This document shows positions 25,120-40,227 of a stretch of DNA of 64,000 nucleotides, piece after piece (position 1 is the first letter of the stretch; the number at the start of each line of letters is the position of its first letter). The translations under genes were made by a program, and so were the position numbers. The DNA is from Bacteroidia bacterium (GTDB taxonomy: Bacteria > Bacteroidota > Bacteroidia > AKYH767-A > OLB10): assembly GCA_037045145.1 (NCBI GenBank), contig JBAOIA010000012.1, positions 235,210 to 299,209 on the forward strand, in the 5' to 3' direction. The notes below the pieces were generated by a model that saw only the letters and a list, made by a program, of their open reading frames with translations, had not been told where the DNA came from and searched no databases.

Positions 25120-25647
25120 TTGCCCCGGCCTAAAGTAGAGGAGCACCGTATTAACGGACGAATTCACGCACCACAAGTAAGATTAGTTGGTGATAATGTA
25201 GAACCCCAAATATATGACACCCAGACTGCGTTGAACATGGCACAGGATATGGGGCTTGATTTGGTAGAAATATCAAATACCAGCACACCACCGGTTTGTA
25301 AAATAGTTGACTATCAAAAATTTCTTTACGAAAGAAAGAAAAAAGACAAAGAGCAAAAAGCAAAAGCAGCGAAGTCTGTCGTAAAGGAAATACGCTTCGG
25401 GCCCAATACCGATGAACATGACTTTAATTTCAAATTAAAACATGCCATCAAATTCCTTGAAGAGGGAGCAAAAGTTAAAGCTTATGTTCACTTTAAAGGA
25501 CGAAGCATAGCTTATAAAGAAAAAGGAGAAATTATCCTCCTGAAGTTTGCGCAGGAGTTGGAGCAATATGCAAAGGTTGAAATGCTTCCGAAATTAGAAG
25601 GCAACCGCATGTTTCTGCACCTGGCACCACTTGCAAAGAAGAAGTAA
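25120..25647 (+). CDS. infC: translation initiation factor IF-3 (non-ATG start; frame open back to 25045, possible ATA start at 25057)
   Basis: [18 protein letters not shown]..., ...[32 protein letters not shown]. No in-frame ATG precedes the conserved core. Confidence 0.85.
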
Positions 25648-25681
25648 ATAAAATAATAAACAAATAAAAATTAGAAGCATC

Positions 25682-25879
25682 ATGCCGAAAATGAAAAGAA
25701 ACTCCAGTGCAAAGAAAAGATTCAGTGTTACTGGAACGGGTAAAATAAAAAGAAAACATGCTTTCAAAAGCCATATCCTTACCAAGAAGTCAACTAAGCG
25801 CAAGCGTGCATTAACCAATGCAGCCATCGTTCATAAGTCTGACGAGTTTAACGTAAAAAGAATGCTTTCAATAGCATAA
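25682..25879 (+). CDS. rpmI: 50S ribosomal protein L35
   Basis: 65 aa, [14 protein letters not shown]. Confidence 0.92.
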
Positions 25880-25962
25880 AAAATATTATTCAATTAAGTT
25901 TAACCAGGTAATTAGCATCAAGATTCCGCAAGGCGGAGCGCTAACACCAAAAATTAAAACAC

Positions 25963-26307
25963 ATGCCACGTTCGGTAAATTCAGTAGCATCAAGAGCAAG
26001 ACGTAAAAAACTGCTCAACCGCGCCAAAGGAAATTGGGGCGCAAGAGGTAACGTATTAACCGTTGCCAAACACACCGTAGAAAAAGGTTTGCAATATGCC
26101 TACCGCGACCGTAAAACAAAGAAACGCAACTTTCGCGGCTTATGGATTCAGCGTATTAATGCTGAGGTAAGAAACTATGATATGTCTTACAGCGAGTTTA
26201 TGGGTAAACTGCATAAAGCAGGAAACCAACTTAACCGCAAAGTTCTTGCCGACCTTGCACTTAACAATCCGGACGCTTTTAAAGCAATTGTTGAGTCGGT
26301 AAAGTAA
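25963..26307 (+). CDS. rplT: 50S ribosomal protein L20
   Basis: 114 aa, [16 protein letters not shown]...AYRDRK. Confidence 0.92.
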
Positions 26308-26330
26308 ACCTACTTTAAAATAATTAAAAG

Positions 26331-26370
26331 AGGCTGTTTCAAAACAATAAATTGAGGCAGCCTTTTTTTA
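26331..26370 (+). terminator. intrinsic terminator after rplT
   Basis: AGGCTG (26331-26336) pairs with CAGCCT (26358-26363) and is followed by TTTTTTT. Confidence 0.55.
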
Positions 26371-26478
26371 TACGCTGCTTTATAGAGGCAGATGATTAAA
26401 AAGAAATCGAGTTTTATTTTTATTTCTGAGGGACGTTATGGTGTATTAGGAGATGTTTTTAATGATTATGACATCCTT

Positions 26479-26515
26479 CCCCGTACCTGCGAAGCTGTGC
26501 TTCGTGGGGTTTGTG
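26479..26515. repeat. REP-like hairpin, left arm of RAYT unit 1
   Basis: CCCCGTACCTGCGAAGCTGTGCTTCGTGGGGTTTGTG. A second related hairpin, GGAAGC-TGC-GCTTCC, follows at 26518-26532. Confidence 0.7.
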
Positions 26516-26545
26516 CAGGGAAGCTGCGCTTCCGATAAAAAACAC

Positions 26546-27076
26546 TTACATACTTAACACCTTAATCGGGCTGTTTTCGTTTGCGATGCTTAACCTCCAT
26601 AAATGCGGTTCATCAACAAAACCTGCTTCAACAGGATTACGATGTATGTAATCAACCTTTTGGTCTATGATGCGGTTAGAGTATAATTCAAATGCGTGAT
26701 TATCGTGTTGCCAAAACTGTTTTTCCTGTTTATGTGATGATAGTCTGCCATAAAACTTAAATTCTTTCATCAACCATTCGCGCCTGCTTTCCAGCATATT
26801 TTCTTCTATAGACTGCATTATCGTTTTAGCGGTAAAAGATTTCATATCACGCATTAAATCATTTAAAGTTCCTTCTTCTCTTGATGCAATTATGTGAACA
26901 TGGCTTGGCATGATGCAGTAGCAATATAGTTGCAGCCCTTTGTTTTTTTGGCAGTAAATAATACTGTCTGTAACTATATCCTGATACAATCGCCTTGTGA
27001 AAATATCAACCCAGCCAATGGTTGTAATTGTTACAAAATATAAACCGCCCGGAAAAGTTTTATAAACTTCAGACAT
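26546..27076 (-). CDS. REP-associated tyrosine transposase (RAYT; IS200/IS605-like Y1 HUH transposase)
   Basis: HUH motif SHVHIIA and the catalytic-Tyr helix VDYIHRNPVEAGFV. The start is taken at MSEVYKTFPGGLYFVT. Confidence 0.8.
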   Translation of the reverse strand: MSEVYKTFPGGLYFVTITTIGWVDIFTRRLYQDIVTDSIIYCQKNKGLQLYCYCIMPSHVHIIASREEGTLNDLMRDMKSFTAKTIMQSIEENMLESRREWLMKEFKFYGRLSSHKQEKQFWQHDNHAFELYSNRIIDQKVDYIHRNPVEAGFVDEPHLWRLSIANENSPIKVLSM

Positions 27077-27144
27077 TTGTTGTTTGCATATATGCAAAAA
27101 TGATAATTTTTAGATCAGTATATGATTGAAGTAAAACTTCCAAA

Positions 27145-27181
27145 CACAAAACCCACGAAGCACAGCTTCGCGGGTACGGGG
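27145..27181. repeat. REP-like hairpin, right arm of RAYT unit 1
   Basis: CACAAAACCCACGAAGCACAGCTTCGCGGGTACGGGG, the inverted copy of 26479-26515. Confidence 0.7.
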
Positions 27182-27212
27182 ATGCTGCGCTTATGAATTT
27201 GAGTAATTTCAT
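27182..27212 (-). pseudogene. 31-nt stump of a sixth paralog (start codon plus about 10 codons, MKLLKFISAA..)
   Basis: The segment 27182-27240 parallels the junctions at 30238-30295 and 31795-31852. It has the same 12-nt spacer, the same upstream CTD end, and ATGCTGCGCTTAT identical to the ATG-proximal arm of the SP-2 palindrome. The gene stops abruptly at REP1-R. Confidence 0.7.
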
Positions 27213-27225
27213 TTTACAACAAAAG

Positions 27226-28809
27226 TTATTCAACTATAAATTTCTTTACCAATCTTTCTTTTTCTGTTTGCAACGAAACAATGTACATGCCTTTTGCAAG
27301 TGCGCTGCAATTAATATCCTGTGTAAAATAACCTCCTGCGCTACCCCCAACCCCTGAAGGGGAGAGCCTACGCGCAGTGTTATAAATTAGATTGCCTGTA
27401 ACATCGTATATGGTTAGCGTTATACTTTTTCCTTTTAAATGCTGCGCATTTACAAACAGCTTTTGCCATGAAGCTATGTAGGTAACAAACAACTCCGCTC
27501 CCTTTGCTGATGTTGCAAGAGGTGCTATACCTGTTAGTGTATCACACGCACTACCTGCTATTGCTCCAAGTTCATAATTCGGATTATTAGGCAAGCCCAA
27601 GTATGTTCTCTTACCGCCAAGATAAAAACTGTAAGGCTGAAAATCACATGCCGAACCTAAACTATCAGGCTGGTTTATTACTGACAAGTTCATATTGTAC
27701 ATATTATAGACAGTATCAGGGTATGGGTAAGGAAACATAATTCCATTGTTGTACCAACATGCCAAATAAATTTTGCCATCGGATGCAAGTTTTAAACCAC
27801 CCCCAGCATAATTTGGAAAAGTCAACGCCCACAACGTATCCTTAGTAAGCGAAATATTCGCTGCGTTTAAATCATATTGAAATAAGTAAGTAGTATTTGG
27901 AGATGCGGTTACATACAACTTACTTTCATCGGGTGAAAATTCACAACTCCATGTAAAAGGATAGGGTGGCATACCCGCATCAGGCTCTATAGTAACGGGA
28001 TTATTTAACAATCCTGTGCAACGGTCAAAATCATAAAGTTCTATTAAACCCAACCAATTGGTAAATACCAATTTTTCGCCATCAGGCGAAAAATTGGTAT
28101 GCGCTCCTCCTGTTCTGTTTTGCGAACCAACGGACTGAACGGATAAATTCTGAATTCCGTTAGGAGTTATTAAATAGCTGTACCAATCGTTATTTGAACT
28201 AAATGTGAGTGCATCTGATTTTCTGAATAATAACCACCAATCTCTTCCGTTGCCATGCTTAACAGCATTTAAGCAATCCACTTGTTCAAAGCTTTGCAGT
28301 TGAACATTTTTAACTGTTACAGCACCCAAGCCGTTATTCAATCGCATATCTATTACGCTATAAACAATACCAAATGTATCGGTAATACTTATTGAGAAAA
28401 GGTAATATGTGCTGTCATTTGCAGGATTTGGAATTATAACCAATTCCTGATACCACAACCTGCCTACAATAGAATCCCCATTAAGCATTATATCATGATT
28501 TCTATCAAAAACAAAAGTTGCCATCTCTGTATTAGAAGCATATGCACGCATAGTAGCCGCATAAAACAACAGTTGTCCATTACTATCCGCAATGCTTACA
28601 CAACTGCCTCTTCCGTCAACAGAAGAAGAAAAAGTTACAGGTATTCCGCTTGAAAAATCAATACCAGCACTATCACCAAAACACCATACCGAGTTCCTAT
28701 TTTGTGAAACGCAAAAAAAATGGCAGCAACAAAGTGTTGCTGCCATTATTAAACATTTTAAACTATTTAATAACCACAAACCGTTTTTTAAAATATTCGC
28801 CTGCTTCAT
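27226..28809 (-). CDS. paralog A: T9SS-sorted secreted beta-propeller-like protein (SP-1 signal, CTD variant alpha)
   Basis: Shares the family motifs SVWCFGDS, GRGSC.SI.D..G.LLFY, KHGNGRDWW, FSPDGEKL, YDFDRCTG and LKLA.DGKIYL. The C-terminal about 90 aa has a Por_Secre_tail-like pattern (ITLTIYD..G...INCSALAKGMYIVSLQTEKERLVKKFIVE). The start is uncertain: 28809 overlaps gene B, and the conserved ATG is at 28746. Confidence 0.75.
   Translation of the reverse strand: MKQANILKNGLWLLNSLKCLIMAATLCCCHFFCVSQNRNSVWCFGDSAGIDFSSGIPVTFSSSVDGRGSCVSIADSNGQLLFYAATMRAYASNTEMATFVFDRNHDIMLNGDSIVGRLWYQELVIIPNPANDSTYYLFSISITDTFGIVYSVIDMRLNNGLGAVTVKNVQLQSFEQVDCLNAVKHGNGRDWWLLFRKSDALTFSSNNDWYSYLITPNGIQNLSVQSVGSQNRTGGAHTNFSPDGEKLVFTNWLGLIELYDFDRCTGLLNNPVTIEPDAGMPPYPFTWSCEFSPDESKLYVTASPNTTYLFQYDLNAANISLTKDTLWALTFPNYAGGGLKLASDGKIYLACWYNNGIMFPYPYPDTVYNMYNMNLSVINQPDSLGSACDFQPYSFYLGGKRTYLGLPNNPNYELGAIAGSACDTLTGIAPLATSAKGAELFVTYIASWQKLFVNAQHLKGKSITLTIYDVTGNLIYNTARRLSPSGVGGSAGGYFTQDINCSALAKGMYIVSLQTEKERLVKKFIVE
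28720..28746. repeat. SP-1 perfect palindrome (12-bp arms, 3-nt loop) containing the start ATG of paralog A and followed by U8 on the mRNA
   Basis: ATGGCAGCAACA-AAG-TGTTGCTGCCAT on the plus strand, with A8 at 28713-20 whose last A (28720) is the first stem base, i.e. 7 A beyond the stem. Confidence 0.85.
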
Positions 28810-30268
28810 TCTTTATTCTAATATTATACACTCCGTCAGAAAGCGAAGATACATCAATGCTGCCATTTGTGCCATTAGTTTGTTTTTCTATTATCAGTCG
28901 CCCGTAAATGTCGTAAACAACCAGTTCATTTTTTGCATCGCTTAATCCTGATATAAACAAGATGTTGTTTACAGGGTTGGGGTAAATGTTTATTAAGTTC
29001 CCCTTTGGGGGATTTAGGGGGCTTATGCCTGTCAACGTATCACACGCACTTCCCGCTAACGCCCCCAACTCATAATCCGGATTATTAGGCAAACCTCCGT
29101 AAGTTCTTTTGCCACCAAGATAAAATGAGTAGGGTTGTAAATCACATGCTGAGCCTAAGCTGTTGGGAGAGTTAATGGTGCTTAAATACATATTGGTGTT
29201 ATTATACATAGTGTCGTTATAAGGATAATATTGATAATAACTTGTTGCTAAATAAATTTTACCGTCAGGAGCAAGCTTTAAATCGTCCATAGTTTCATTA
29301 AAATGAGTTTGTCGCAATGTATCAACACTTGCAGCAATATTGGTTGCCGTTAAATCAAACTGATACAGCCGCGATGTATCGGTTGATTGTATGGGTATGC
29401 CGGATATATAAAGTAAATTATCGTCAGGCGAAAAACATGCGCCCCAATAACAACCAAATGGAGCTTGCGTGGGTTCAGGATAAATGGTTTGCAAATTACT
29501 TAATTGCCCTGTGCATCTGTCAAAGTCATACAATTCCAATAAGCCAACCAAGGTATAATATACCATTTTATTGCCATTATTTGAAAATTGAATTCTGCCA
29601 AACCCATGATTAGTTGCAAACCCAATATTTTGCGGCATGGAATCGGAAACACCCGCTGGCGAAATCAAATATTTGTAAAAAGTGTTGTTAATATTATTCC
29701 ACCTCCGGTTAATAATCCACCAGTCTCTTCCGTTGCCATGTTTAATGGCTTTTAATCCGTCAGCGCTTTTGTAATTATGTAACTGCACATTTTTTTGAAT
29801 CACTTCGCCTAATCCGCCATTGGCGCTCATATCAACTATGGAATAATATAAACCTAACTGACTACTACCCGTTACGCCAATGGAAAAAACATAATATTGA
29901 TTGTTGTTAGATGGATTATCAATAATTAAAACTTCATGGTACCAGGCTTGCATAACAATAGAATCACCATTTTGCATGATTTGATGTTGTTTATTCCAAA
30001 TTTCACCATTTTGAAATGGCGGACCTCCGGCAGCCCATGTATCTGTATTATAACCTGCATAAAATAACAGGCTTCCGGCACTGTCGGCAATGCTTGCACA
30101 ACTGCCGCGCGATTTTACCATGCTGCTGCCTGTTATGATATTGGCAGTATCACTAAAATCAACCAGCGCACTGTCGCCAAAGCACCACACGCTGCCCTGC
30201 TTTTGCGCATTTGCAAAATAAGCGCAGCATATAAGAAATGCTGCGCTTATGTATCGGAGTGATTTCAT
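28763..30268 (-). CDS. paralog B: T9SS-sorted beta-propeller-like protein (SP-2 signal, CTD variant beta)
   Basis: 501 aa. The CTD reads IYPNPVNNILFISGL...VVYDIYGRL...IDVSSLSDGVYNIRIKNEAGEYFKKRFVVIK. Confidence 0.8.
   Translation of the reverse strand: MKSLRYISAAFLICCAYFANAQKQGSVWCFGDSALVDFSDTANIITGSSMVKSRGSCASIADSAGSLLFYAGYNTDTWAAGGPPFQNGEIWNKQHQIMQNGDSIVMQAWYHEVLIIDNPSNNNQYYVFSIGVTGSSQLGLYYSIVDMSANGGLGEVIQKNVQLHNYKSADGLKAIKHGNGRDWWIINRRWNNINNTFYKYLISPAGVSDSMPQNIGFATNHGFGRIQFSNNGNKMVYYTLVGLLELYDFDRCTGQLSNLQTIYPEPTQAPFGCYWGACFSPDDNLLYISGIPIQSTDTSRLYQFDLTATNIAASVDTLRQTHFNETMDDLKLAPDGKIYLATSYYQYYPYNDTMYNNTNMYLSTINSPNSLGSACDLQPYSFYLGGKRTYGGLPNNPDYELGALAGSACDTLTGISPLNPPKGNLINIYPNPVNNILFISGLSDAKNELVVYDIYGRLIIEKQTNGTNGSIDVSSLSDGVYNIRIKNEAGEYFKKRFVVIK
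30218..30250. repeat. SP-2 perfect palindrome (13-bp arms, 7-nt loop) inside the signal-peptide codons of paralog B
   Basis: ATAAGCGCAGCAT-ATAAGAA-ATGCTGCGCTTAT. It encodes ISAAFLICCAY on the minus strand. Confidence 0.85.
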
Positions 30269-30280
30269 TTAAAACAAAAG

Positions 30281-31825
30281 TTATTCAACAACAAATTTAT
30301 TTACCAATCTTTCTTTTTCTGTTTGCAACGAAACAATGTACATGCCTTTTGCAAGTGCGCTGCAATTAATATCCTGTGTAAAATAACCTCCTGCGCTACC
30401 CCCAACCCCTGAAGGGGAGAGCGCACGCGCAGTGTTGTAAAATAACTTGCCTGAAATATCGTATATGGTTAGTGTTATATTTTTTCCTTTTAAATGCTGT
30501 GCATTTACAAACAACCTTTGCCATGATGCCATGTAGGTAACAAACAACTCCGCTCTCTTTGCTGATGTTGCAAGAGGTGCTATGCCCGTTAATGTATCGC
30601 ATGGGCTGCCTGATATTGCAGGCAGTGTATAATCAGGATTATTAGGTAAACCTCCGTAAGTTCTTTTGCCACCAAGATAAAATGAGTAGGGTTGTAAATC
30701 ACATGCTGAGCCTAAGCTGTTGGGAGAGTTAATGGTGCTTAAATACATATTGGTATTATTATACATAGTGTCCTTATAAGGATAATATTGATAATAGCTT
30801 GTTGCTAAATAAATTTTACCGTCAGGAGCTAATTTAAGAAATCCCATAGATGCATTAAAATGAGTTTGCCATAATGTATCGGCACTGGCAGCTATATTGG
30901 TTGCCGTTAAATCAAGCTGATACAGCCGCGATGTGTCGGTTGATTGTATGGGTATGCCGGATATATAAAGTAAATTATCGTCAGGCGAAAAACATGCTCC
31001 CCAATACCAGCGTAAGGGAGCCTGTGTGAGTTCAGGGTAAATGGTTTGTAAATTACTTAATTGCCCTGTGCATCTGTCAAAGTCATACAATTCCAATAAG
31101 CCAACCAAGGTATAATATACCATTTTATTGCCATTATTTGAAAATTGAATTCTGCCAAACCCATGATTAGTTGCAAACCCAATATTTTGCGGCATGGAAT
31201 CGGAAACACCCGCTGGCGAAATCAAATATTTGTAAAAAGTGTTGTTAATATTATTCCACCTCCGGTTAATAATCCACCAGTCTCTTCCGTTGCCATGCTT
31301 AATGGCTGTTAATCCGTCAGCGCTTTTGTAATTATGCAACTGTACATTTTTTTGAATCACTTCGCCTAATCCGCCATTAGCGCTCATATCAACTATGGAA
31401 TAATATAAACCTAACTGACTACTACCCGTTACGCCAATGGAAAAAACATAATATTGATTGTTGTTAGATGGATTATCAATAATTAAAACTTCATGGTACC
31501 AGGCTTGCATAACAATAGAATCACCATTTTGCATGATTTGATGTTGTTTATTCCAAATTTCACCATTTTGAAATGGCGGACCTCCGGCAGCCCATGTATC
31601 TGTATTATAACCTGCATAAAATAACAGGCTTCCGGCACTGTCGGCAATGCTTGCACAACTGCCGCGCGATTTTACCATGCTGCTGCCTGTTATGATATTG
31701 GCAGTATCACTAAAATCAACCAGCGCACTGTCGCCAAAGCACCACACGCTGCCTTGCTTTTGTGCATTTGCAAAATAAGCGCAGCATAGTAAAAATGCTG
31801 CGCTTATGTATCGGAGTGATTTCAT
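30281..31825 (-). CDS. paralog C: chimera of a B-like body and a D-like tail (SP-2 signal, CTD variant alpha)
   Basis: 514 aa. It is near-identical to B over the N-terminal region at a 1557-nt offset. The C-terminal about 130 aa are near-identical to D. Confidence 0.8.
   Translation of the reverse strand: MKSLRYISAAFLLCCAYFANAQKQGSVWCFGDSALVDFSDTANIITGSSMVKSRGSCASIADSAGSLLFYAGYNTDTWAAGGPPFQNGEIWNKQHQIMQNGDSIVMQAWYHEVLIIDNPSNNNQYYVFSIGVTGSSQLGLYYSIVDMSANGGLGEVIQKNVQLHNYKSADGLTAIKHGNGRDWWIINRRWNNINNTFYKYLISPAGVSDSMPQNIGFATNHGFGRIQFSNNGNKMVYYTLVGLLELYDFDRCTGQLSNLQTIYPELTQAPLRWYWGACFSPDDNLLYISGIPIQSTDTSRLYQLDLTATNIAASADTLWQTHFNASMGFLKLAPDGKIYLATSYYQYYPYKDTMYNNTNMYLSTINSPNSLGSACDLQPYSFYLGGKRTYGGLPNNPDYTLPAISGSPCDTLTGIAPLATSAKRAELFVTYMASWQRLFVNAQHLKGKNITLTIYDISGKLFYNTARALSPSGVGGSAGGYFTQDINCSALAKGMYIVSLQTEKERLVNKFVVE
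31775..31807. repeat. SP-2 perfect palindrome in paralog C
   Basis: ATAAGCGCAGCAT-AGTAAAA-ATGCTGCGCTTAT. The arms are identical to the B copy and the loop differs at 3 of 7 positions. Confidence 0.85.
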
Positions 31826-31837
31826 TTAAAACAAAAG

Positions 31838-33409
31838 TTATTCAACAACAAATTTATTTACCAATCTTTCTTTTTCTGTTTGCAAAGAAACAATATACAT
31901 GCCTTTTGCAAGTGCGCTGCAATTAATATCCTGTGTAAAATAACCGCCTGCGCTACCCCCAACCCCTGAAGGGGAGAGCACTCGCGCAGTGTTATAAATT
32001 AGCTTGCCTGTAACATCATATAGGGTTAGTGTTATATTTTTCCCTTTTAAATGCTGCGCATTTACAAACAATTTTTGCCATGATGCCATGTAGGTAACAA
32101 ACAACTCCGCTCCCTTTGCTGATGTTGCAAGAGGTGCTATACCCGTTAATGTATCACAGGGACTGCCTGATATTGCAGGCAGTGTATAATCAGGATTATT
32201 GGGTAAACCAAGATATGTTCTTTTGCCTCCGAGATAAAAACTGTAAGGCTGAAAATCACATGCAATTCCTAAACTATCAGGTTGGTTTATTACTGACAAG
32301 TTCATATTGTACATATTATAAACAGTATCCTGATATGGATAAGGAAATTGAACTCCATTATAATATATGCTGGCTAAATAAATTTTATTGTCTGGAGCTA
32401 ATTTTAATCCGCCTCCAGTATAAAGAGGATAGTTGGTTGTCCAAAGTGTATTTTTACTTTGTGAGATATTTGACGCATTTAAGTCATATTGAAATAGGTA
32501 AGTAGTATCATCTGCTGTTGTTACATATAATTTGCTTGCATCGGGTGAGAATTCACAACTCCAAGTATATGGCACTGATGGCAATGCTTCCGGTTCAATG
32601 GTAACAGGATTGCTCAATAATCCTGAACAACGGTCAAAATCATATAGCTCAACCAACCCAATCAAATTGGTAAATACCAATTTTTCGCCTGATGGCGAAA
32701 AATTGGTATATCCTGAGTTGGTTTTGTTTAATGAACCTATTGACTGAATGGAAAAATTCTGAACGCTGACAGGTGTAATTAAATAAGAATACCAGTCATT
32801 GTTGCCATTTGATAAAGAACCTGCTTTTCTGAATAATACCCACCAGTCCCTTCCATTGCCATGCTTAACGGCATTTAAGCAATCAACCTGCTCAAAGCTT
32901 TGCAGTTGAACATTTTTAACCGTCACAGCCCCCAAGCCGTTATTCAGCCGCATATCAATTATGCTGTAATATAAGCCATATATGCTCGTTACTCCAATAG
33001 AAAATAAGTAATAGGTGCTGTCATTAGCCGGATTGGGTACTATTACCAATTCCTGATACCAACCTCTGCCAACAATATTATTTCCGTTTTGCATTACCTG
33101 ATGAGTTGTATCAAAAACTAATGTGGTGTTGCCACTTATTGTGGCTCTTGTTTCGGCATAGAAAAGAAGTTTACCATTTTCATTTGCAATTGATGCGCAT
33201 GAACCTCTGGTATCTAATCCACATGAGCCAACTATAATATTTGAAGTATCACTGAAGTCAATTAAAGCGCTGTCGCCAAAGCACCACACCGAATTACGGT
33301 TTTGCGCATAGGAAAAGAAATGGCAGCAACAGAGTGTTGCTGCCATTAATGAAAATTTTAAATTATTTAATAACCACAAACCGTTTTTTAAAATATTCGC
33401 CTGCTTCAT
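31838..33409 (-). CDS. paralog D: T9SS-sorted beta-propeller-like protein (SP-1 signal, CTD variant alpha)
   Basis: 523 aa with the same family motifs. The start is uncertain: 33409 overlaps E, and the conserved ATG is at 33346. Confidence 0.75.
   Translation of the reverse strand: MKQANILKNGLWLLNNLKFSLMAATLCCCHFFSYAQNRNSVWCFGDSALIDFSDTSNIIVGSCGLDTRGSCASIANENGKLLFYAETRATISGNTTLVFDTTHQVMQNGNNIVGRGWYQELVIVPNPANDSTYYLFSIGVTSIYGLYYSIIDMRLNNGLGAVTVKNVQLQSFEQVDCLNAVKHGNGRDWWVLFRKAGSLSNGNNDWYSYLITPVSVQNFSIQSIGSLNKTNSGYTNFSPSGEKLVFTNLIGLVELYDFDRCSGLLSNPVTIEPEALPSVPYTWSCEFSPDASKLYVTTADDTTYLFQYDLNASNISQSKNTLWTTNYPLYTGGGLKLAPDNKIYLASIYYNGVQFPYPYQDTVYNMYNMNLSVINQPDSLGIACDFQPYSFYLGGKRTYLGLPNNPDYTLPAISGSPCDTLTGIAPLATSAKGAELFVTYMASWQKLFVNAQHLKGKNITLTLYDVTGKLIYNTARVLSPSGVGGSAGGYFTQDINCSALAKGMYIVSLQTEKERLVNKFVVE
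33320..33346. repeat. SP-1 perfect palindrome containing the conserved ATG of paralog D
   Basis: ATGGCAGCAACA-GAG-TGTTGCTGCCAT. It is followed on the mRNA by UUCUUUUCC. Confidence 0.85.
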
Positions 33410-34865
33410 TCTTTATTCTAAGGTTATACACTCCGTCAGAAAGCGAAGATACATCAATGCTGCCCGCTGCAGAAGCATTCTTCTTTAATAATAATCTGCC
33501 GTAAATATCATACACCTCTATTTCATTTTTGCCTTCAGGCATTCCGCTAACATACAATGTGCTGTTGGCGGGGTTGGGAAATATCCTCACCCCACCCCTC
33601 TCCAAAGGAGAGGGAGCTATGCCTGTAAGTGTATCACACACACTACCCGCTACCGCCTCCAACTCATAATCAGGATTATTAGGTAAACCAAGATATGTTC
33701 TTTTGCCTCCGAGATAAAAACTGTACGGCTGAAAATCACATGCTGCGCCTAAGCTATCAGGTTGGTTAATTACTGATAAGTTCATATTGTACATGTTGTA
33801 AACACTATCCCTGTAAGGATAATAATTAGAGGCATTATAATACACATTACTCAAATAGATTTTGTTATCAGGAGCCAACTTTAATCCTCCTATTGCATAA
33901 GGAAATAAATTAAATGACCATAGAGTATCTTTGCTTCCGGGAATATTGGGTGCGTTTAAATCGTATTGAAATAAATATGAAGTAGTTTGATTGGTGGTAA
34001 CATATAACTTACTTTCATCAGGAGAAAACTCACAACTCCAAATAAATGGATAAGGAGGGTTACCTAAATCAGGTTCTATAGTAACGGGATTATTTAACAA
34101 TCCTGTGCAACGATCAAAATCATAAACTTCAATCAAACCCAACCAATTGGTAAATACCAATTTTTCGCCATCAGGCGAAAAATTGGTATGCGCTCCTCCT
34201 GTTCTGTTTTGCGAACCAACGGACTGAACGGATAAATTCTGAATTCCGTTAGGAGTTATTAAATAGCTGTACCAATCGTTATTTGAACTAAATGTGAGTG
34301 CATCTGATTTTCTGAATATTAGCCACCAATCTCTTCCGTTACCATGTTTAACGGCATTTAAGCAATCCACTTGTTCAAAGCTTTGCAGTTGTATATTCTT
34401 AGCAGTAACTGCTCCTAATCCACCATTCTGTTTCATATCTATGATGCTGTAAACAAGTCCGTTATTACCAGTGACATTTATTGAAAAAAGATAATATACA
34501 CTGTCGTTGGCAGGATTAGGAACAATTACCAATTCCTGATACCAACCTTCTCCAACAATAGAATCTCCATCTTGCATTACTGATCCTGTTGAATTAAAAA
34601 CAAAGGTTGAATTATCAATACTTATGGCATACTTGTACATTGTTGCTGCATAAAAAAGTAAATTCCCGTTATTGTCTGAAATGCTGACACAGCTTCCCCG
34701 ACTATCCATTCCTGATTGAAAAGTAACAGGTAATCCCGAACCAAAATCTATTCCCGCACTATCGCCAAAGCACCATACGCTATTTCTATTTTGCGCATAA
34801 GAAAAAAAATGGCAGCAACAAAATGTTGCTGCCATTAGTAAGCATTTTAAATTAAGTGATTTCAA
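33363..34865 (-). CDS. paralog E: T9SS-sorted beta-propeller-like protein (SP-1 signal, CTD variant beta)
   Basis: 500 aa. The ORF track uses a TTG start at 34865, and the conserved ATG is at 34835. Confidence 0.75.
   Translation of the reverse strand: MKSLNLKCLLMAATFCCCHFFSYAQNRNSVWCFGDSAGIDFGSGLPVTFQSGMDSRGSCVSISDNNGNLLFYAATMYKYAISIDNSTFVFNSTGSVMQDGDSIVGEGWYQELVIVPNPANDSVYYLFSINVTGNNGLVYSIIDMKQNGGLGAVTAKNIQLQSFEQVDCLNAVKHGNGRDWWLIFRKSDALTFSSNNDWYSYLITPNGIQNLSVQSVGSQNRTGGAHTNFSPDGEKLVFTNWLGLIEVYDFDRCTGLLNNPVTIEPDLGNPPYPFIWSCEFSPDESKLYVTTNQTTSYLFQYDLNAPNIPGSKDTLWSFNLFPYAIGGLKLAPDNKIYLSNVYYNASNYYPYRDSVYNMYNMNLSVINQPDSLGAACDFQPYSFYLGGKRTYLGLPNNPDYELEAVAGSVCDTLTGIAPSPLERGGVRIFPNPANSTLYVSGMPEGKNEIEVYDIYGRLLLKKNASAAGSIDVSSLSDGVYNLRIKNEAGEYFKKRFVVIK
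34809..34835. repeat. SP-1 perfect palindrome containing the conserved ATG of paralog E
   Basis: ATGGCAGCAACA-AAA-TGTTGCTGCCAT. It is followed on the mRNA by U7CUU (A8 at 34802-34809, whose last A is the first stem base). Confidence 0.85.
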
Positions 34866-34866
34866 A

Positions 34867-37800
34867 TTATTTAATTACAATAAATCTCGTTCTAAAATAC
34901 TCATCTGTCTCATTTCGTATCCTCAGATTATAAATACCTTCTGCCAGCGAAGATACGTCAATTACGCCACTGCTGCTGTTATTTTGCTTTGTAAATAATA
35001 ACCTGCCATAAAGGTCGTAAACCTGCATTTCATTTTTACCATCACTCATTCCTGTTACCAACAGCAAGCTGTTGGCTGGGTTAGGTTGTATGCGTACCTT
35101 ATCAGCCGGCAGTGTTTTTTCAGGCAATTCATTCTGAGTATGACTGCCACCCTGCCGCAATGCGGGCAATTCAGGAGAGTAATATTCCTTACCGAGCAAG
35201 GCTGCCGCACTGTAAACGCTCTTGCCCGCTATGAGCCAGTGCTGCGCCAGCAGGCTTTCCAACGCTGTGGTGTCTGTTGCATCAAGCGTATCACCTGCTG
35301 CCAGCTTGCCGATAATAAGGCTGTTGATGAGCTTATAGTTGGCTTCCATATCATTGCTTTCGGTAATGCTGCTGTTAATGGTTGCAGCAGCAGCAATGTC
35401 ATCGGCTTTAATAGCCTGCTTTACGGAGTCAAACTTGCCTATGTTGGCATTGAGCATGACATTGTAAAATGCGCGGAATGATGAGTCAGCCGCGCTGCCT
35501 GTGGTGAGCAGTGTGGTGTCAGCGCTGAGCCGTTTGAACAGGGTTTCTTTAGCAAGGTATTTAGCCTCATCTGCATAACTATCGTACACAGCAGAATCAC
35601 CCACTACGGGACCAAATTCTTTATCTCTGTCAATATCGACATTGGTAAATAACGCGGTTGCACAATCAGTATTTGAACTTGCTTCATTATCATCCGCTAA
35701 AATAACATTCCCATTATAAGGATCAGGAGTAAATAAATTATTTACGTCTGTTTCATCTCCTTGAAAATACCATTTAAAAGGTGATGCTACCTGCAAGTAT
35801 CCATCCACTTTCATTAAAGCATTGTTTGAAGTAATCCATTGATTATCCCATGCGTTATTTGCAGTTCCCTGAGGTGAAAATTGTGCGTTTTCATACCAAA
35901 TACCTTTGTTATAATCAGTCATCACATTATTTTTCAGCCGCGTGGTTTGGCAATCGCCCTCAAAGCGCAGGGCATAGCCGAGGCGTGTAATGCCGTTGCC
36001 GCATATATTCAGGTTTTGAGAATTGTCGGCAGCAATGCCGCGTATTTTATCAGCATTATAAGCAACAACGCTGTTGTTATAAATGTCGTTCGCTTTAATA
36101 ACAGCATCGTTGCAGTCCTGTATAAATATGCCTGAATACATTTGGCTTGTTTCTAATCCGTCATCAGCCTCCATAGCAATGGTGTTGGGCAAAAGGCTGC
36201 TGCCGTCCGTTCCAACGCTTATGCCCGGTGTGTTGTTGGCATATATTCCTATTCGCGCTCCGGTTATGGAGTTGTCTGTAATAGTTACTGCGCTGTTTGC
36301 GCCCTGCTCATATAATACCCTTATGCCATAATCGCCAGTTGCATAAATGTTATTATGGTCAACGGAAACGGCATTGCCTGTGGTGGCTGTGCTGTTTATA
36401 TAAACGGCAGAAGTAGGAACAGTTAAATCGGCAGGTGTTTTTACATGCAAATCGTTACCGGTAATCTGAATAGTGTTGCTGCCGCATTTTTCAACCAAAA
36501 TGTTGTTTTTGCTGTTGCTCATGGCATTCTGGTTGCATTTAACAAAGCTGCCTGCAAGCTTTCCGTTGCAGTTAAACATCCTGTACCCTGCTTCGGCACA
36601 GTTGTTTATTGTGTTTTGTTCCATCCTCAACTGCTCAGTTACATTGCCAATGCCATACCTCATGTTTTCAAATGTGTTGTGCAAAATAATTTTATCATCA
36701 TTGGCATTGGCGGCTTCGCCCAATATTAAAGCTCCGTAGCCGGTGGGCGAGGTTATAAGCGGATAAGCCAGTAACCGCGCCTGTGACACATCGGGTACAC
36801 GCCCCGGTGCATCTTTAAAATAATTGTACCGGATGTTATAGTCAACGGGGTTTACTAATCTTATACCATAGTCCATGTCAGAAAAAACATTTTGCTCATT
36901 TGCTGCGCCAATGGTTAAATCGGATGGCGCGAGGAGCAGAATATGGTTAAACGATTTGTCGCCATATTCATAAACCGCTCTTCCGCTGCACCTGAAAATG
37001 CAATTATGTATTTGCATATTGCTGTAATCCGTTACGCCCGCCCCTAATTCAACTATGCCGTAAAAATTATGGTCGAATAAGGTATTGGATAAATTAATAT
37101 TTGTAATGGATGAGGAATTGCCGTTAATTGCAATAGCTGCTTCGGCATCTTCCATATCGGAATTGGTTATTTCCAGCTCGGAAGTGCCGTCAGCAAGCAC
37201 AATGCCTTTCCATAACACATTACAACCGAAAAAACGGCTGTCTTGTACATCTAGCTTTTTGCCTGCATCAACATATATTCCCACTCCCTGGCTGCAAATT
37301 ACTGTTTTGTTGTTAAATAAATTAAAATCGGCATCTACCGTAAAATCATCCGTAAGATATACCACATCAGGAGTTATAACGCTGATTGCGCTTGCAATGT
37401 TATTTCCACTATTAATAGTAAATGTGCTGCTGACGCACAATGTTGAAGATAATGTGCCGCACACATCGGGCTGCGGCTGCAAAGCAAGGTTTTTGTCTTC
37501 GGCAATAACTATTTGGTCAACTAACACGTTTCCGTTAATGCTGTTAATGGATAATGTATATTCCTGATTATCGAGTTGGCTCAATAAAATAGGAGATAAA
37601 CTGTTTGGCAAAAACCGATACCAATTCCAGTCACTGCTGCTAATACAGCTTAACGTACAAACGGGAGTACCGTCCAATTTAATTTCAAGCTGGCTGCCTG
37701 AACCGGCATCTTTGGCTTTTATCCAAACATAATAATCGGTATCATCAACTCTGGGGTGAAATTTATATTCAACAGGGGCACTTCCTGCTGCAAAAGAAAT

Positions 37801-39540
37801 ATAAGTGGTAAAGTTTCTATAATCACCAGAAGATGTTCCACCCGGTACAGATGTAACACGGGTTACATTTGCAGGTGCAGAAACATTATCCCACACCTCG
37901 GCTTCAAACCAAAAATCTTTGCTCCAGCGGTCAGGGTGCTTATATTCATGCCATGCATCAAGCTGGTAGAATACAGGAGGATTAACAGAAGCATCGAAAA
38001 TGTAAGTGCTGCCCTGCCTGCGAACGTTAAACTGCAAGTCGTAAGTGGATGTGCTTCCGCCTGCATTATCAGCCAAATGTATTTTGGCTGCTTTTTCCAA
38101 AGGAGCATTGCCTTTTACATTGGAGTAAGGTTGAACGGTACCGGTGATGACGTATTTTTCTATAGCATTATCTTTTCTGGAAAGCACCAACACATCAGGT
38201 GAACTAGATTTAAAGGCGTACATCATATCGGGCGCAGCAGAATTACCCGGCTCTTGTAATCTGTCACCTTCAAGCAAATGTCCATCTATAATTAAATCAG
38301 CAAATCGGTCCGCTATTGCATGTGCGTAAGCAGGTGTTGCAGCTTGCCAAACATAACCTTTAGGTTCAACAACATCTGGAAGTGCAAAAACATGAAAGAA
38401 ATCAGATCCAAGAACAGAGACTGCCTTTAACAATCCAAGCCATTGCCCGGGTCTTAAATTATCTTCTTCATTATGAGCCCATCCGGGTGCAACAAATGGC
38501 GCATTTATATAATCCCCGTTATTTAATTCTTCTTTTTTGCTTCTGGTCAGCCATAAAAATCCGTGATCTGCAGAGCGAGATTCTCTAAGCCAGTCTTCTG
38601 GTCTTCTTGGATAAAAGTCAGGCGTAGCAAGCCTGACATTTACGGGCGTTGAACCGTATTGTACAACCGATTGGGTTTCTCTTAATTCATTATAGCGGTA
38701 TCTTGCTTGATCGTAATTGATTCCGTTATTAGTTACTAACTTCCAATGACCATCAACAGCATAATTTAGAAATATGGTTCCATCAGAAACAAGTTTTGAA
38801 ATATTCATAAAATTGTCCCTATAATCATTGTCAAGTTCTTTTCCCTTTGTTGCCATAAATTCTTCCCATTTTAATGGTGTATCAGCATTTCCAGATAAAA
38901 ATGTAATGTAAGCAGATGACAATGGAGTAGAAGATAATGTATTTCTTAAATTATAAATTGCTTTATGAGAAACCTCATTATTTTCAGAAATTACTTTGAC
39001 TTTTGCAGAAATTCCGTTTAAAATAGTTTGTAAATAATCATTCTGCAATAATCCATCTGTTGCATACACATCTCTTTTGTTTGAAAAAATATTTCCTGTT
39101 CCTGTTCCAAATGCCGGGCTGTAATTCCAAAAATGTGTACCACTGTTGTTTCCTTCAAAATTATAAAACATACTTGACTTATAAAGATAAAAATCCTCAT
39201 CACTAACGGTAACAGTACCAAAATTTGTAAAGCTTGTAGCGTTTTGTTCCCTGATCCAGGAGTTGGTAATTCCAGGAGGCACTTTATTAACAAGAGATGA
39301 TGGCAATGAATGTCCAAGATCACTTGTACTATAACTTAATTGAGCACGATTTGTTATAATTCCTATTTCATCAGTTGAATTAAAATTTGTTGCTGCATAA
39401 TTAATATATTGTTGATTTTCGGGATCAAGATATGTTCTCGTGTTTTCACAAATATTGAATAAATAATACCAATTTTTATACAGTTCGAGCTGTACATTTA
39501 AGGATCTTGTTCCATCATGTTCTCCAAGATAGTTACTCCC
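34867..39540 (-). pseudogene. C-terminal fragment (1,557 codons) of a giant T9SS-sorted protein split by RAYT unit 2
   Basis: The frame is open from 39540 down to the stop at 34867. The ORF track reports only 34867..39306 from an internal TTG. A TAG contributed by the inserted element (39541-43) lies immediately upstream. The fragment contains PbH1-type beta-helix repeats, a CBM-like segment and the CTD IQPNPANSLLLVTG...IDVSSLAEGIYNLRIRNETDEYFRTRFIVIK. Confidence 0.7.
39505..39540. repeat. 36-bp direct repeat, left copy (flanks RAYT unit 2)
   Basis: TCTTGTTCCATCATGTTCTCCAAGATAGTTACTCCC, identical to 40192-40227. Confidence 0.9.
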
Positions 39541-39569
39541 CTACTGGCGCAAGTCTTCAGACTTGTGCC
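39541..39569. repeat. REP-like hairpin, left arm of RAYT unit 2
   Basis: GGCGCAAGTC-TTCA-GACTTGTGCC (one G-T pair). Confidence 0.7.
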
Positions 39570-39601
39570 ATCCTGTCATTAAAAATTGCACATTTGCAAC
39601 C

Positions 39602-40153: not shown

Positions 40154-40159
40154 TAGTAG

Positions 40160-40191: not shown

Positions 40192-40227
40192 TCTTGTTCC
40201 ATCATGTTCTCCAAGATAGTTACTCCC
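40192..40227. repeat. 36-bp direct repeat, right copy
   Basis: Identical to 39505-39540. Confidence 0.9.

What the first reader, a model, noticed from the sequence alone, without database searches (positions are those of the whole stretch)
27182..34865. Five-gene tandem array is a patchwork: bodies, heads and sorting domains have been exchanged between copies
All observations here are by eye. (1) B and C are near-identical from about 29080/30637 to their starts, at a constant 1557-nt offset, and essentially identical over the last roughly 770 nt. Their 3' ends nevertheless encode different sorting domains (beta versus alpha). (2) The tail of C (from ...PNNPDY|TLPAISGSPCDTLTGIAPLATSAK... to the end) is near-identical to the tail of D. 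C is therefore a B-body/D-tail chimera with the crossover near 30620-30650. (3) A and E share a 181-nt block with no mismatch (28049-28229 versus 34138-34318, offset 6089) inside otherwise diverged genes, and A has the alpha CTD while E has beta. (4) The junction made of the CTD-beta end plus the next gene start is repeated at 28741-28870 and 33341-33470. (5) A and D share identical stretches (IDMRLNNGLGAVTVKNVQLQSFEQVDCLNAVKHGNGRDWW). This pattern indicates ongoing gene conversion or unequal crossing-over that reshuffles three modules: signal peptide, propeller body and CTD. It could be a variation mechanism for secreted or surface proteins.
Basis: seen in the sequence. Interest (0 to 1): 0.62.

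Follow-up and report, generated by a model that had tools for sequence, protein, structure and literature searches.

The report
Mosaic tandem array of secreted propeller genes
Five neighbouring genes for secreted beta-propeller proteins in an uncultured wastewater Bacteroidia bacterium have repeatedly swapped pieces with each other, and related strains carry different numbers and combinations; this is a clear but ordinary case of recombination within a gene family.

Summary
Window 27226-34865 (minus strand) holds five tandem paralogs, in the order E-D-C-B-A. Each encodes a Sec signal peptide, a seven-bladed beta-propeller and a T9SS type A C-terminal domain (CTD).

The genes are mosaics.
- A and E share a 184-nt exact block inside otherwise saturated synonymous divergence (pS 0.00 against about 0.6-0.7).
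- B and C are 96% identical over their 5' 1.2 kb but carry different CTDs.
- The tree topology switches at C ~30652, right after the invariant GGKRTYxGLPNNPDY motif.
- My PHI and triplet permutation tests reject clonal divergence.

Independent public assemblies confirm B(3' half)-A-RAYT-L20 and E-D. Two contigs nearly identical to the window in E and D, one also 100% identical over 7 kb of flank, carry only E-D. Other contigs join the D, C and B bodies to other CTDs or heads.

The best explanation is recurrent non-allelic homologous recombination (gene conversion and unequal crossing-over), plus exchange between lineages.

Two caveats apply. Signal peptide and CTD are predicted to be cleaved off, so only body exchanges would change the mature protein. 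Each CTD also travels with the next gene's head as one block.

An adaptive or programmed role is untested. The D-C and C-B joins rest on the window's own assembly. This is a new member of a known kind, of moderate interest.

The parts
33363..34865 (-). Gene E (500 aa from TTG; 490 aa from the ATG at 34835 used by gene callers). It encodes a signal peptide, a propeller and a beta-type T9SS type A CTD.
   Evidence: ORF. PF18962 57 bits and TIGR04183 52 bits. The 490-aa product is found unchanged on 19 public contigs.
31838..33409 (-). Gene D (523 aa). Its start overlaps the end of E by 47 nt. It carries an alpha-type CTD.
   Evidence: AF2 model of D: pLDDT 83.5, all-beta propeller body plus a 7-strand CTD. 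99.1-99.7% identical in L009 and L011.
30281..31825 (-). Gene C (514 aa). It has a B/C-type head and body and an alpha-type CTD.
   Evidence: The protein is in the public collection, on the same 1.13-Mb NCBI contig.
28763..30268 (-). Gene B (501 aa). It has a B/C-type head and body and a beta-type CTD.
   Evidence: Its 3' 857 nt are confirmed colinear with A in the independent contig L093.
27226..28809 (-). Gene A (527 aa; 506 aa from the internal ATG). Its start overlaps the end of B by 47 nt. It carries an alpha-type CTD.
   Evidence: L093 matches window 29619-26298 at 99.8%.
27195..27225 (-). Orphan 31-nt B/C-type gene head (ATGAAATTACTCAAATTCATAAGCGCAGCAT) after the 12-nt spacer that follows A. 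It is cut off by the REP end of the RAYT1 element.
   Evidence: Alignment with the D/C and C/B junctions. The same junction is present in L009, L011, L001 and L092.
28046..28229 (-). A copy of the 184-nt block that is identical between A and E (a recent conversion tract).
   Evidence: pS 0.00 in the alignment segment holding it, against 0.61-0.74 in the flanks. Unitigs in three runs end 31 nt before its low-coordinate edge.
34135..34318 (-). E copy of the same 184-nt block.
29080..30280 (-). B part of the B/C near-identical segment (head, 5' 1.2 kb of the body and the upstream spacer). Two short hyper-divergent patches lie at 29273-29336 and 29441-29492.
30637..31837 (-). C part of the B/C near-identical segment (offset 1557).
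30640..30665 (-). Main recombination breakpoint in C (body to alpha tail), immediately 3' of the invariant GGKRTYxGLPNNPDY motif.
   Evidence: Parsimony segmentation, triplet test and invariant columns of the family alignment.
30238..30652 (-). Alpha block in C: alpha CTD, 12-nt spacer and the B head. Homologous blocks lie at 31795-32209 (D tail and C head) and 27182-27597 (A tail and orphan head).
   Evidence: Repeat families D2 and D11, alignment A1 and pairwise identities of 90-94%.
28741..28870 (-). Beta junction block: end of B's beta CTD plus the overlapping A head. It is repeated at 33341-33470 (end of E plus the D head). A diverged third copy with 15 extra nt lies at ~34800-34950 (end of the big gene plus the E head).
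34867..39306 (-). Upstream 1479-aa T9SS cargo gene with a beta-like CTD. Its stop codon lies 1 nt from the start of E, so it probably heads the same transcription unit.
   Evidence: It is shorter or truncated in other assemblies.
26480..27194 (-). RAYT1 element, which bounds the array. It holds an IS200-like Y1 transposase gene (26546-27097) between inverted REP-like ends.

Best explanation
The region is a tandem array of five complete paralogous genes, lying on the chromosome next to thrS-infC-rpmI-rplT. It belongs to an uncultured activated-sludge Bacteroidia bacterium (an NCBI MAG, contig of 1.13 Mb).

Each gene encodes a Sec signal peptide, a seven-bladed beta-propeller of unknown function and a T9SS type A C-terminal sorting domain.

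The copies evolve by non-allelic homologous recombination:
- Short and long gene-conversion tracts copy sequence between paralogs. Donors include paralogs elsewhere in the genome.
- Unequal crossing-over between copies adds or deletes whole genes.
- Homologous recombination with co-occurring relatives imports alleles.

Crossovers concentrate where the family is most conserved. These places are the signal-peptide/mature boundary (AQNRNSVWCFGDS) and the propeller/CTD linker (YSFYLGGKRTYxGLPNNPDY...CDTLTG). As a result heads, bodies and CTDs appear as exchangeable modules. Each CTD nevertheless stays linked to the head of the next gene.

What is shown: the mosaic structure, the zero-dS tracts, the breakpoint positions, and the differences in copy number and module combination between independent assemblies.

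What is inferred: that RecA-type homologous recombination is the mechanism; that the two-gene forms arose by deletion; and that head and CTD swaps are neutral by-products, because both are predicted to be cleaved off. Only exchanges within the propeller body would alter the mature secreted or surface protein.
For: Architecture:
- PF18962 and TIGR04183 are above their cutoffs in all five proteins.
- The AF2 model of D (pLDDT 83.5) shows an all-beta body plus a 7-strand C-terminal sandwich.
- The best compact Foldseek hits are seven-bladed Bacteroides lactonase-like propellers 3fgb, 3scy and 4qrj, at TM about 0.6 normalised by the target.
- All heads end in A|Q or S|Q, as the Q-rule predicts (PMC5837995).

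Mosaicism:
- The sliding identity profile shows nearest-paralog switches.
- PHI-type test: z = -52.7.
- pS by segment is 0.00 for A/E over alignment positions 601-780, and for B/C over 121-480 and 601-780. The background is 0.6-0.8.
- The topology switches at alignment position 1245.
- Triplet tests give p < 5e-5.
- C equals B over protein-alignment columns 201-280 but equals paralog P0041 (MEI2759648, same contig) over columns 281-400.

Linkage of junction blocks.

Independent assemblies:
- L093 matches window 29619-26298 at 99.8%.
- L011 has 100% flank identity over 7 kb, E at 100% and D at 99.7%, but goes from D directly to the orphan head and RAYT1. Its tail allele carries SNP combinations less than 10 nt apart that no path through window-type k-mers could produce.
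- L009 has the same short form with a more upstream crossover.
- L005-L008, L012, L013 and L014 have an identical E and D head followed by other bodies or CTDs.
- Protein-level body x CTD combinations are tabulated.

Read-level support: unitig ends and depth in independent runs fit the shared blocks.

Exchange between lineages: there are 100% identical tracts at 35238-33138 and 27150-25600 in a background of about 88% identity.

Precedent in T9SS cargo genes: PMC5266723 and PMC9328147.
Against: - The D-to-C and C-to-B joins, and the phasing of B against C across their 374-nt and 248-nt exact runs, are seen only in the window's own assembly. Logan unitigs there are 50-100 nt long. No long-read run could be listed.
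- Exact products of A, B and C were not found on other contigs of the gene-position index.
- Most comparison contigs come from short-read metagenome assemblies of mixed strains. Some of their chimeric genes could be assembly paths rather than real alleles.
- Rates were not measured. 'Ongoing' rests on differences between near-identical strains, not on observed events.
- With pS near saturation, the ages of the older exchanges cannot be ordered.
Confidence: 0.85

Rival explanations
1. Assembly or polishing artefact. The five-gene arrangement, or the exact-identity blocks, were produced by mis-joining or by short-read polishing of repeats in a mixed-strain metagenome.
For: - The D-C and C-B joins are unsupported outside the window assembly.
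- The de Bruijn graph is heavily branched here, with several alternative joints and loose ends.
- Depth ratios of A-specific against D/E-specific unitigs differ between runs, so several array variants co-exist.
Against: - L093 independently reproduces B(3' half)-A-RAYT1-L20 at 99.8%.
- L009 and L011 reproduce E-D, and L014 reproduces E plus most of D.
- Unitigs in several unrelated runs end exactly 31 nt before the low-coordinate edge of the A/E block on both the A and the E side.
- The 374-nt B/C run is a single unitig at raised depth in X1.
- The window lies on a 1.13-Mb contig, which suggests long-read scaffolding.
- Mosaicism is also seen in dozens of unrelated assemblies of the family.
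Confidence: 0.07
2. There has been no exchange. The copies simply diverged after duplication, and the identical stretches are kept by purifying selection on the protein.
For: The A/D shared 40-aa peptide behaves this way (pN 0.01, pS 0.49). The family has many invariant residues.
Against: - Synonymous divergence is zero in the A/E and B/C tracts while neighbouring segments are near saturation.
- The tree topology changes along the genes.
- CTD type is incongruent with body type.
Confidence: 0.02
3. The mosaic is mainly imported. Alleles come from co-occurring related lineages by homologous recombination (allelic replacement), not from exchange between copies on the same chromosome.
For: - E and the D head (about 2.1 kb) and the RAYT1-rplT-rpmI tract are 100% identical to genomes whose thrS region is only about 88% identical.
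- P. gingivalis surface genes show such allelic exchange (PMC5266723).
Against: - Import cannot by itself create identical blocks between two different copies of one chromosome (A/E, B/C), or the repeated junction blocks.
- The two-gene and five-gene forms differ by a crossover between paralogous tails.
- Both processes probably act together.
Confidence: 0.25
4. This is a selected, possibly programmed diversification locus. Shuffling of propeller bodies varies a surface or secreted protein under phage, predator or substrate pressure, perhaps aided by the flanking RAYT/REP elements.
For: - The family is greatly expanded, with more than 3700 homologs and many copies per genome.
- Body segments are exchanged and combined widely.
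- Arrays are bounded by RAYT elements in the window, and in non-syntenic loci of other species.
- The genes are transcribed at a low level in situ.
Against: - All five copies are complete genes, not silent cassettes.
- No reverse transcriptase, invertase or site-specific recombinase other than the two Y1 transposases was found among the 31 window ORFs scanned against Pfam. About 11 other ORFs of 150 aa or more were not scanned.
- All copies have the same orientation.
- Two of the three 'modules' are predicted to be cleaved off.
- To my knowledge Y1/HUH transposases have not been reported to promote gene conversion.
- No test of selection was possible at saturated dS.
Confidence: 0.1

Closest known systems
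Domain rearrangement and homologous recombination among the Porphyromonas gingivalis T9SS cargo genes kgp, rgpA and hagA (PMC5266723; PMC9328147)
   Same: - The genes are paralogous T9SS-secreted surface proteins of a Bacteroidota bacterium.
- They share near-identical segments.
- Strains differ by mosaic domain variants unrelated to the core phylogeny.
- Deletions arise by recombination between repeats.
   Different: - The gingipain and hagA genes are dispersed or paired, not a five-gene head-to-tail array.
- The exchanged units there are adhesin domains of the mature protein.
- Here the body is an uncharacterised seven-bladed propeller, the CTD and signal peptide are among the exchanged parts, and the organism is an uncultured environmental bacterium.
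Concerted evolution of bacterial multigene families by gene conversion and unequal crossing-over (general phenomenon; named from my own knowledge, e.g. duplicated tuf genes, Neisseria opa genes)
   Same: - There are tracts of zero divergence in diverged paralogs.
- Phylogeny is incongruent along the gene.
- Copy number changes through crossovers between direct repeats.
   Different: Here the evidence comes from metagenome assemblies and not from isolates. Exchange also involves diverged co-occurring lineages.
Cassette-based antigenic variation (Neisseria pilE/pilS, Borrelia vlsE; named from my own knowledge)
   Same: Segmental gene conversion among tandem, related sequences that encode a surface protein.
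   Different: Those systems have one expression site plus promoterless partial cassettes and unidirectional transfer. Here all five copies are full genes with a start codon, signal peptide and CTD. No expression-site asymmetry was seen.
T9SS type A CTD cargo proteins (TIGR04183 / PF18962)
   Same: All five proteins, and the upstream 1479-aa protein, match both models above their cutoffs and have an N-terminal signal peptide. The model of D shows the 7-strand sandwich.
   Different: The alpha CTD scores only 24.6-30.4 bits against a cutoff of 23. It carries an extra Gly/Ser-rich loop (SPSGVGGSAGGYF) that is modelled with low confidence.

Membership tests
T9SS type A cargo protein | C-terminal domain matching TIGR04183 / PF18962 above the curated cutoff | tested here: met
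   A 30.4, B 50.3, C 26.2, D 24.6 and E 52.3 bits against a cutoff of 23. PF18962 scores are 29-58 bits against a cutoff of 27.
T9SS type A cargo protein | N-terminal Sec (SPI) signal peptide; in Bacteroidota it is typically cleaved before Gln | tested here: met
   By inspection only, with no predictor run. There are hydrophobic heads ending ...SYA|Q...CVS|Q and ...ANA|Q. The AF2 model has an N-terminal helix at residues 2-32. The Q-rule is described in PMC5837995.
T9SS type A cargo protein | CTD folds as a compact seven-strand beta-sandwich | tested here: met
   The model of D has seven strands between residues 435 and 522. pLDDT is mostly 80-92, apart from the inserted loop at 481-487.
T9SS type A cargo protein | The genome encodes the T9SS machinery (SprA/Sov, PorU, PorV, GldKLMN) | not tested
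   Only the 64-kb window is available. It holds further CTD cargo genes (49362-54122) but no machinery genes among the ORFs scanned.
T9SS type A cargo protein | Secretion and CTD cleavage shown experimentally | not testable with these tools
   This needs proteomics or genetics in a cultured host.
Multigene family under gene conversion / unequal crossing-over | Phylogenetic incongruence along the aligned paralogs beyond chance | tested here: met
   PHI-type test z = -52.7, with 0 of 2000 permutations as low. Topology switch at alignment position 1245. Triplet tests p < 5e-5.
Multigene family under gene conversion / unequal crossing-over | Exchanged tracts lack synonymous differences while the flanks are diverged | tested here: met
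   A/E pS is 0.00 in alignment positions 601-780, against 0.61-0.74 in the flanks. B/C pS is 0.00 in 121-480 and 601-780.
Multigene family under gene conversion / unequal crossing-over | Copy-number variants between close relatives, with breakpoints in paralogous sequence | tested here: met
   L011 (flank 100% identical over 7 kb) and L009 carry E-D only. Their crossovers lie at different points of the alpha tail and junction.
Multigene family under gene conversion / unequal crossing-over | The arrangement is not an assembly artefact | tested here: inconclusive
   B(3')-A-RAYT1 is confirmed by L093. E-D is confirmed by L009 and L011, and partly by L014. The D-C and C-B joins are not confirmed, because unitigs are too short and no long-read runs could be listed.
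Cassette-type antigenic variation locus | One expressed gene plus silent, incomplete donor cassettes | tested here: not met
   All five copies are intact ORFs with a start codon, signal peptide, body and CTD. The only fragment is the 31-nt orphan head.
Diversity-generating retroelement / invertase shufflon | An adjacent reverse transcriptase, or a site-specific invertase with inverted repeats | tested here: not met
   No such Pfam domain was found in the 31 window ORFs scanned. These cover the array, its immediate neighbours and 20 other large ORFs, but not about 11 others, for example those between 12102 and 21537. All copies are direct repeats on one strand.

The most novel reading that the evidence does not exclude
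These arrays could be population-level combinatorial diversification loci for an abundant, uncharacterised class of T9SS-exported propellers. The invariant motifs at the module boundaries would serve as crossover guides, and RAYT/REP elements would travel with the arrays. New propeller mosaics would be generated and exchanged, even between lineages about 12% diverged, under selection from phages, predators or changing substrates in activated sludge.
Probability: 0.12. Interest if true: 0.7.

Novelty: new member of a known kind. Interest (0 to 1): 0.38.

Why it matters
This is a well-documented example of fast, recombination-driven turnover (2 to 5 or more genes, many module combinations) in a large, unnamed family of T9SS cargo proteins. 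The family has more than 3700 homologs, and no Pfam family meets its cutoff for the propeller body. It is expanded in uncultured wastewater Bacteroidia.

Three practical and scientific points follow.
- Such arrays are places where metagenome assemblies and gene-based strain typing are unreliable.
- CTD type is not a stable property of a cargo lineage.
- The locus is a tractable place to measure recombination within and between lineages in a natural community using long reads.

It does not reveal a new mechanism.

Tried and rejected
- I searched for long-read runs holding the locus, using the library words NANOPORE and PACBIO. None could be listed.
- Exact-product look-ups for A, B, C and P0041 in the gene-position index found nothing on record.
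- Logan contigs of eight runs were laid on the locus. They are unitig-sized in the repeats and cannot phase D-C-B. They did support the block edges and depth.
- A sequence-profile search of PDB gave no significant relative. Fold search gave only generic seven-bladed propellers, so no function could be assigned.
- The weak Pfam SGL (SMP-30/gluconolactonase) hit of A is below its cutoff and was not used as a family assignment.
- I considered the N-terminal WCFGDS motif as a GDSL-lipase block. I rejected this because the model puts it in the first beta strands of the all-beta body, not in an alpha/beta hydrolase fold.
- Full-text search for T9SS plus gene conversion plus paralogs found nothing.
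- I did not run the sigma-70 promoter scan, because Bacteroidota promoters differ from that consensus.
- I did not attempt dN/dS tests for positive selection, because pS is near saturation.

Full report
**What is there**

Window 27226-34865 carries five head-to-tail ORFs on the minus strand. In transcription order they are:
- E, 33363-34865
- D, 31838-33409
- C, 30281-31825
- B, 28763-30268
- A, 27226-28809

A 1479-aa ORF (34867-39306) lies directly upstream, with its stop codon 1 nt from the start of E.

All six proteins end in a T9SS type A sorting domain (PF18962, TIGR04183), above the curated cutoffs. The 'alpha' CTD (A, C, D) scores 25-39 bits and has an extra Gly/Ser-rich loop. Both are the same domain family.

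An AlphaFold2 model of D, built on a 40-sequence alignment, has mean pLDDT 83.5. It shows an N-terminal helix (the signal peptide), an all-beta body and a seven-strand C-terminal sandwich.

Foldseek against PDB returns only beta-propellers. The best compact matches are seven-bladed lactonase-like proteins of Bacteroides (3fgb, 3scy, 4qrj; TM about 0.6 normalised by the target, 10-12% identity). A sequence-profile search of PDB finds nothing significant. The function of the body is therefore unknown.

The heads end in ...A|Q or ...S|Q, as expected for Bacteroidota SPI substrates (Q-rule, PMC5837995).

**Check of the observation**

Every sub-observation is in the sequence.

- B against C at offset 1557: there are 45 mismatches in 29080-30268 and 10 in the last 770 nt. 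Exact runs are 374 and 248 nt. The mismatches cluster in two short patches (29273-29336 and 29441-29492).
- A/E block: it is 184 nt long (28046-28229 = 34135-34318).
- C tail: it is alpha-type and 94% identical to the D tail (350/372). Its last ~120 nt are nearest to A.
- Beta-CTD-end/next-head junction: it is repeated at 28741-28870 and 33341-33470 (120/130 identical). A third, diverged copy lies at the big-gene/E junction.
- The A/D shared 40-residue peptide is real. It has pS 0.49 and pN 0.01, so it is selectively conserved and not recently converted.

**More than chance, and not purifying selection**

- On a codon alignment, a PHI-type test of my own gives z = -52.7, with 0 of 2000 permutations as low.
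- Nei-Gojobori pS is 0.00 for A/E in alignment positions 601-780, against 0.61-0.74 on either side. It is 0.00 for B/C in 121-480 and 601-780, while unrelated pairs sit at 0.7-0.9.
- A parsimony segmentation over the 15 five-taxon topologies finds one dominant switch, from (AE)(BC)D to (BE)(CD)A, at alignment position 1245.
- Triplet maximum-excursion tests give p < 5e-5 for A(D,E), C(B,D) and B(C,E). The A test includes a run of 53 consecutive E-type sites in A.
- The switch lies directly after the invariant motif GGKRTYxGLPNNPDY. The head/body boundary lies at the invariant WCFGDS motif.

The CTD and the next gene's head behave as one block.
- Every alpha CTD is followed by a 12-nt spacer and a B/C-type head. 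This holds for D to C and for C to B. After A there is a 31-nt orphan head (27195-27225) that is cut off by the REP-like end of an IS200-like (RAYT) element.
- Every beta CTD is followed by an A/D/E-type head.
- In B to A and E to D, a 15-nt deletion relative to the big-gene/E junction removes the original start. The longest ORF then begins 47 nt inside the preceding gene. Gene callers use the internal ATG (MAAT...) instead.

One crossover inside a body therefore swaps the rest of the body, the CTD and the next head together. The three 'modules' are not independent.

Two of them, the signal peptide and the type A CTD, are predicted to be removed during export (PMC4804311 abstract; PMC5837995). 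Only body exchanges would change the mature protein.

**Is the arrangement real?**

The window-encoded proteins sit on an NCBI MAG contig of 1,133,659 bp, labelled Bacteroidia bacterium with locus tags V9G42_.

Independent support:
- Contig L093 matches window 29619-26298 colinearly at 99.8%. This confirms the 3' half of B, the B/A junction, A, the orphan head, RAYT1 and the end of rplT.
- L009 and L011 confirm E-D. L014 confirms E and most of D.
- In Logan assemblies of unrelated activated-sludge, biogas and bioreactor runs, unitigs end 31 nt before the low-coordinate edge of the A/E block. This is seen on the A side in X1, X5 and X7, and on the E side in X4, X5 and X7.
- The 374-nt B/C exact run is a single unitig in X1 at about 2-3 times the depth of neighbouring single-copy pieces. 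X5 holds most of it at about 1.6-3.4 times.

The D-to-C and C-to-B joins could not be confirmed. Unitigs there are 50-100 nt long, and no long-read run could be listed.

The exact 490-aa E product occurs on 19 public contigs. What lies downstream of it differs.
- L011 is 100% identical to the window over 7 kb of flank (20.3-27.2 kb), with E at 100% and D at 99.7%. It runs from the D tail straight into the orphan head and RAYT1, so C-B-A is absent.
- Its tail and junction carry a fine-scale mix of D-type and A-type variants less than 10 nt apart. This is a real allele and not a graph shortcut.
- L009 has the same two-gene form, with the crossover further upstream: a D body at 100% and an A-type CTD at 96%.
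- L005/L007/L012, L006/L008 and L014 keep E and the D head unchanged. They continue with a partly diverged D body carrying other CTDs.
- L013 joins the D head to a C-like body.

In the protein collection, the combinations are as follows:
- The D body occurs with alpha (window), beta (P0004) and a third CTD (P0007).
- The C body occurs with E's beta CTD (P0121).
- The B body occurs with an alpha-like CTD (P0213).
- D-like bodies occur with an unrelated signal peptide (P0001).

Further B/C-type paralogs lie on the same contig as an adjacent pair (MEI2759647 and MEI2759648). They share the first ~200 residues with B and C. One of them (P0041) matches the 3' body of C where C differs from B.

Most of the closest B/C-type relatives examined carry alpha-type CTDs, although beta-bearing ones (P0121, P0122, P0124) also exist. 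B, rather than C, may therefore be the recombinant.

**Exchange between lineages**

The L005-type genomes are syntenic with the window but only about 88% identical through thrS. Even so, they are 100% identical to the window over 35238-33138 (big-gene CTD, E and the D head) and 97-100% identical over 27150-25600 (RAYT1, rplT, rpmI and part of infC). This locus also recombines between diverged co-occurring lineages.

**Context**

The window is ordinary chromosome. It holds sigma-70, thiolase, PPIases, GMP synthase, thrS-infC-rpmI-rplT, peptidases and two more CTD cargo genes.

Among the 31 window ORFs scanned against Pfam, none is a reverse transcriptase, an invertase or a recombinase other than the two Y1 transposases that flank the array and the big gene. 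About 11 other ORFs of 150 aa or more were not scanned.

The family has more than 3700 detectable homologs. Nearly all come from uncultured Bacteroidia/Bacteroidota MAGs, with several to many loci per genome.

Metatranscriptome contigs cover parts of A-E at low depth.

**Conclusion**

The best explanation is recurrent non-allelic homologous recombination in a tandem family of T9SS cargo genes. It involves gene conversion and unequal crossing-over, together with allelic exchange between lineages (confidence 0.85).

The closest documented analogue in T9SS cargo is the recombination and domain rearrangement among P. gingivalis kgp, rgpA and hagA (PMC5266723, PMC9328147).

An adaptive or programmed diversification role is possible but untested, and no dedicated machinery was found among the ORFs scanned.

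The finding is a new member of a known kind. Its interest is moderate and comes mainly from the clear population-level picture and the uncharacterised, highly expanded protein family.

Noticed in passing
window 26480-27225: A RAYT/IS200-like element lies here (Y1_Tnp gene 26546-27097, with inverted REP-like ends whose 20-nt cores sit at 26489-26508 and 27152-27171). It abuts a 31-nt orphan B/C-type gene head. The block 'alpha-CTD end + 12-nt spacer + orphan head + REP + RAYT1 5' end' is near-identical in L001 and L092. Those are non-syntenic loci of other species, so the array end and this element seem to travel together.
   Followed up: partly
window 39539-40192; also L001, L092, L005-L008, L012, L014: A second RAYT-type element lies here (gene 39563-40153, 49% aa identity to RAYT1). 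It has hairpin ends GGCGCAAGTCTTCAGACTTGYGCC and is flanked by a 35-nt direct repeat (TCTTGTTCCATCATGTTCTCCAAGATAGTTACTCC). In other assemblies and unitigs it sits elsewhere: inside the RAYT1 gene, next to window 26831/26999 and 31808, and next to 36738 inside the big gene. It looks recently mobile. It also has the highest metatranscriptome depth in the region in three of the four RNA runs.
   Followed up: partly
window 33138-35238 and 25600-27150, against L005/L006/L007: Tracts of 100% (or 97-100%) DNA identity to genomes whose thrS region is only about 88% identical. This suggests recent homologous exchange between diverged co-occurring lineages, or less likely a consistent assembly chimera.
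   Followed up: partly
window 34867-39306: The upstream 1479-aa T9SS cargo gene has a beta-like CTD, and its shorter homologs show faint beta-helix/NosD hits. It varies strongly between assemblies (597/598 and 993 aa). In L005-type genomes it starts right after the RAYT2-type element at the position equivalent to window 36738.
   Followed up: partly
window 32664-32699 and 34145-34180: The same in-frame 36-nt (12-codon) deletion polymorphism appears at homologous positions of D and of E. In E it falls inside the A/E identical block. It is seen in run X4 contigs, and for D also in L006, L008 and L014.
   Followed up: partly
window 28763-28809 and 33363-33409; compare 34850-34870: A and D appear to overlap the preceding gene by 47 nt. 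A 15-nt deletion relative to the big-gene/E junction removed the TTG-AAA-TCA-CT start region. Gene callers instead start A, D and E at an internal ATG (MAAT...), which leaves a very short n-region. The true start codons are uncertain.
   Followed up: partly
window 29273-29336 and 29441-29492 (B), against 30830-30893 and 30998-31049 (C): Two short hyper-divergent patches (20 and 11 mismatches) lie inside the otherwise near-identical B/C bodies. C's versions recur in paralog P0041 and in P0121. B's versions recur in P0122 and P0213. This suggests short-tract conversion from other family members.
   Followed up: partly
same 1.13-Mb contig, outside the window (proteins P0049 and P0041 = MEI2759647 and MEI2759648; P0021): At least two or three further family paralogs lie on the same contig. 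Two of them have consecutive accessions, so they are probably adjacent. They share 98-100% identical N-terminal ~200 residues with B and C. The exchange network is therefore larger than the five-gene array.
   Followed up: partly
window 27226-34865 (protein family): No Pfam family meets its cutoff for the ~380-residue propeller body. The body has strongly conserved motifs (WCFGDS, HGNGRDWW, ELYDFDRC, GGKRTYxGLPNNPDY). Homologs number more than 3700, almost all from uncultured Bacteroidia of wastewater or sludge, with many loci per genome (for example six loci in MAG Fred_18-Q3-R57-64_BATAC.274).
   Followed up: partly
window 49362-51752 and 51828-54122: Two further T9SS type A cargo genes lie here: an M1 peptidase, and a protein with only a sub-threshold BNR-repeat-like (PSII_BNR) hit. 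They are unrelated to the array.
   Followed up: no
window 27000-35000, runs X1 and X5: Depth ratios of copy-specific unitigs differ between samples. In X1, A is about 31x against about 49x for D and E. In X5, A is about 56-66x against about 20-34x for D and E. Several array variants therefore co-exist at different proportions.
   Followed up: partly
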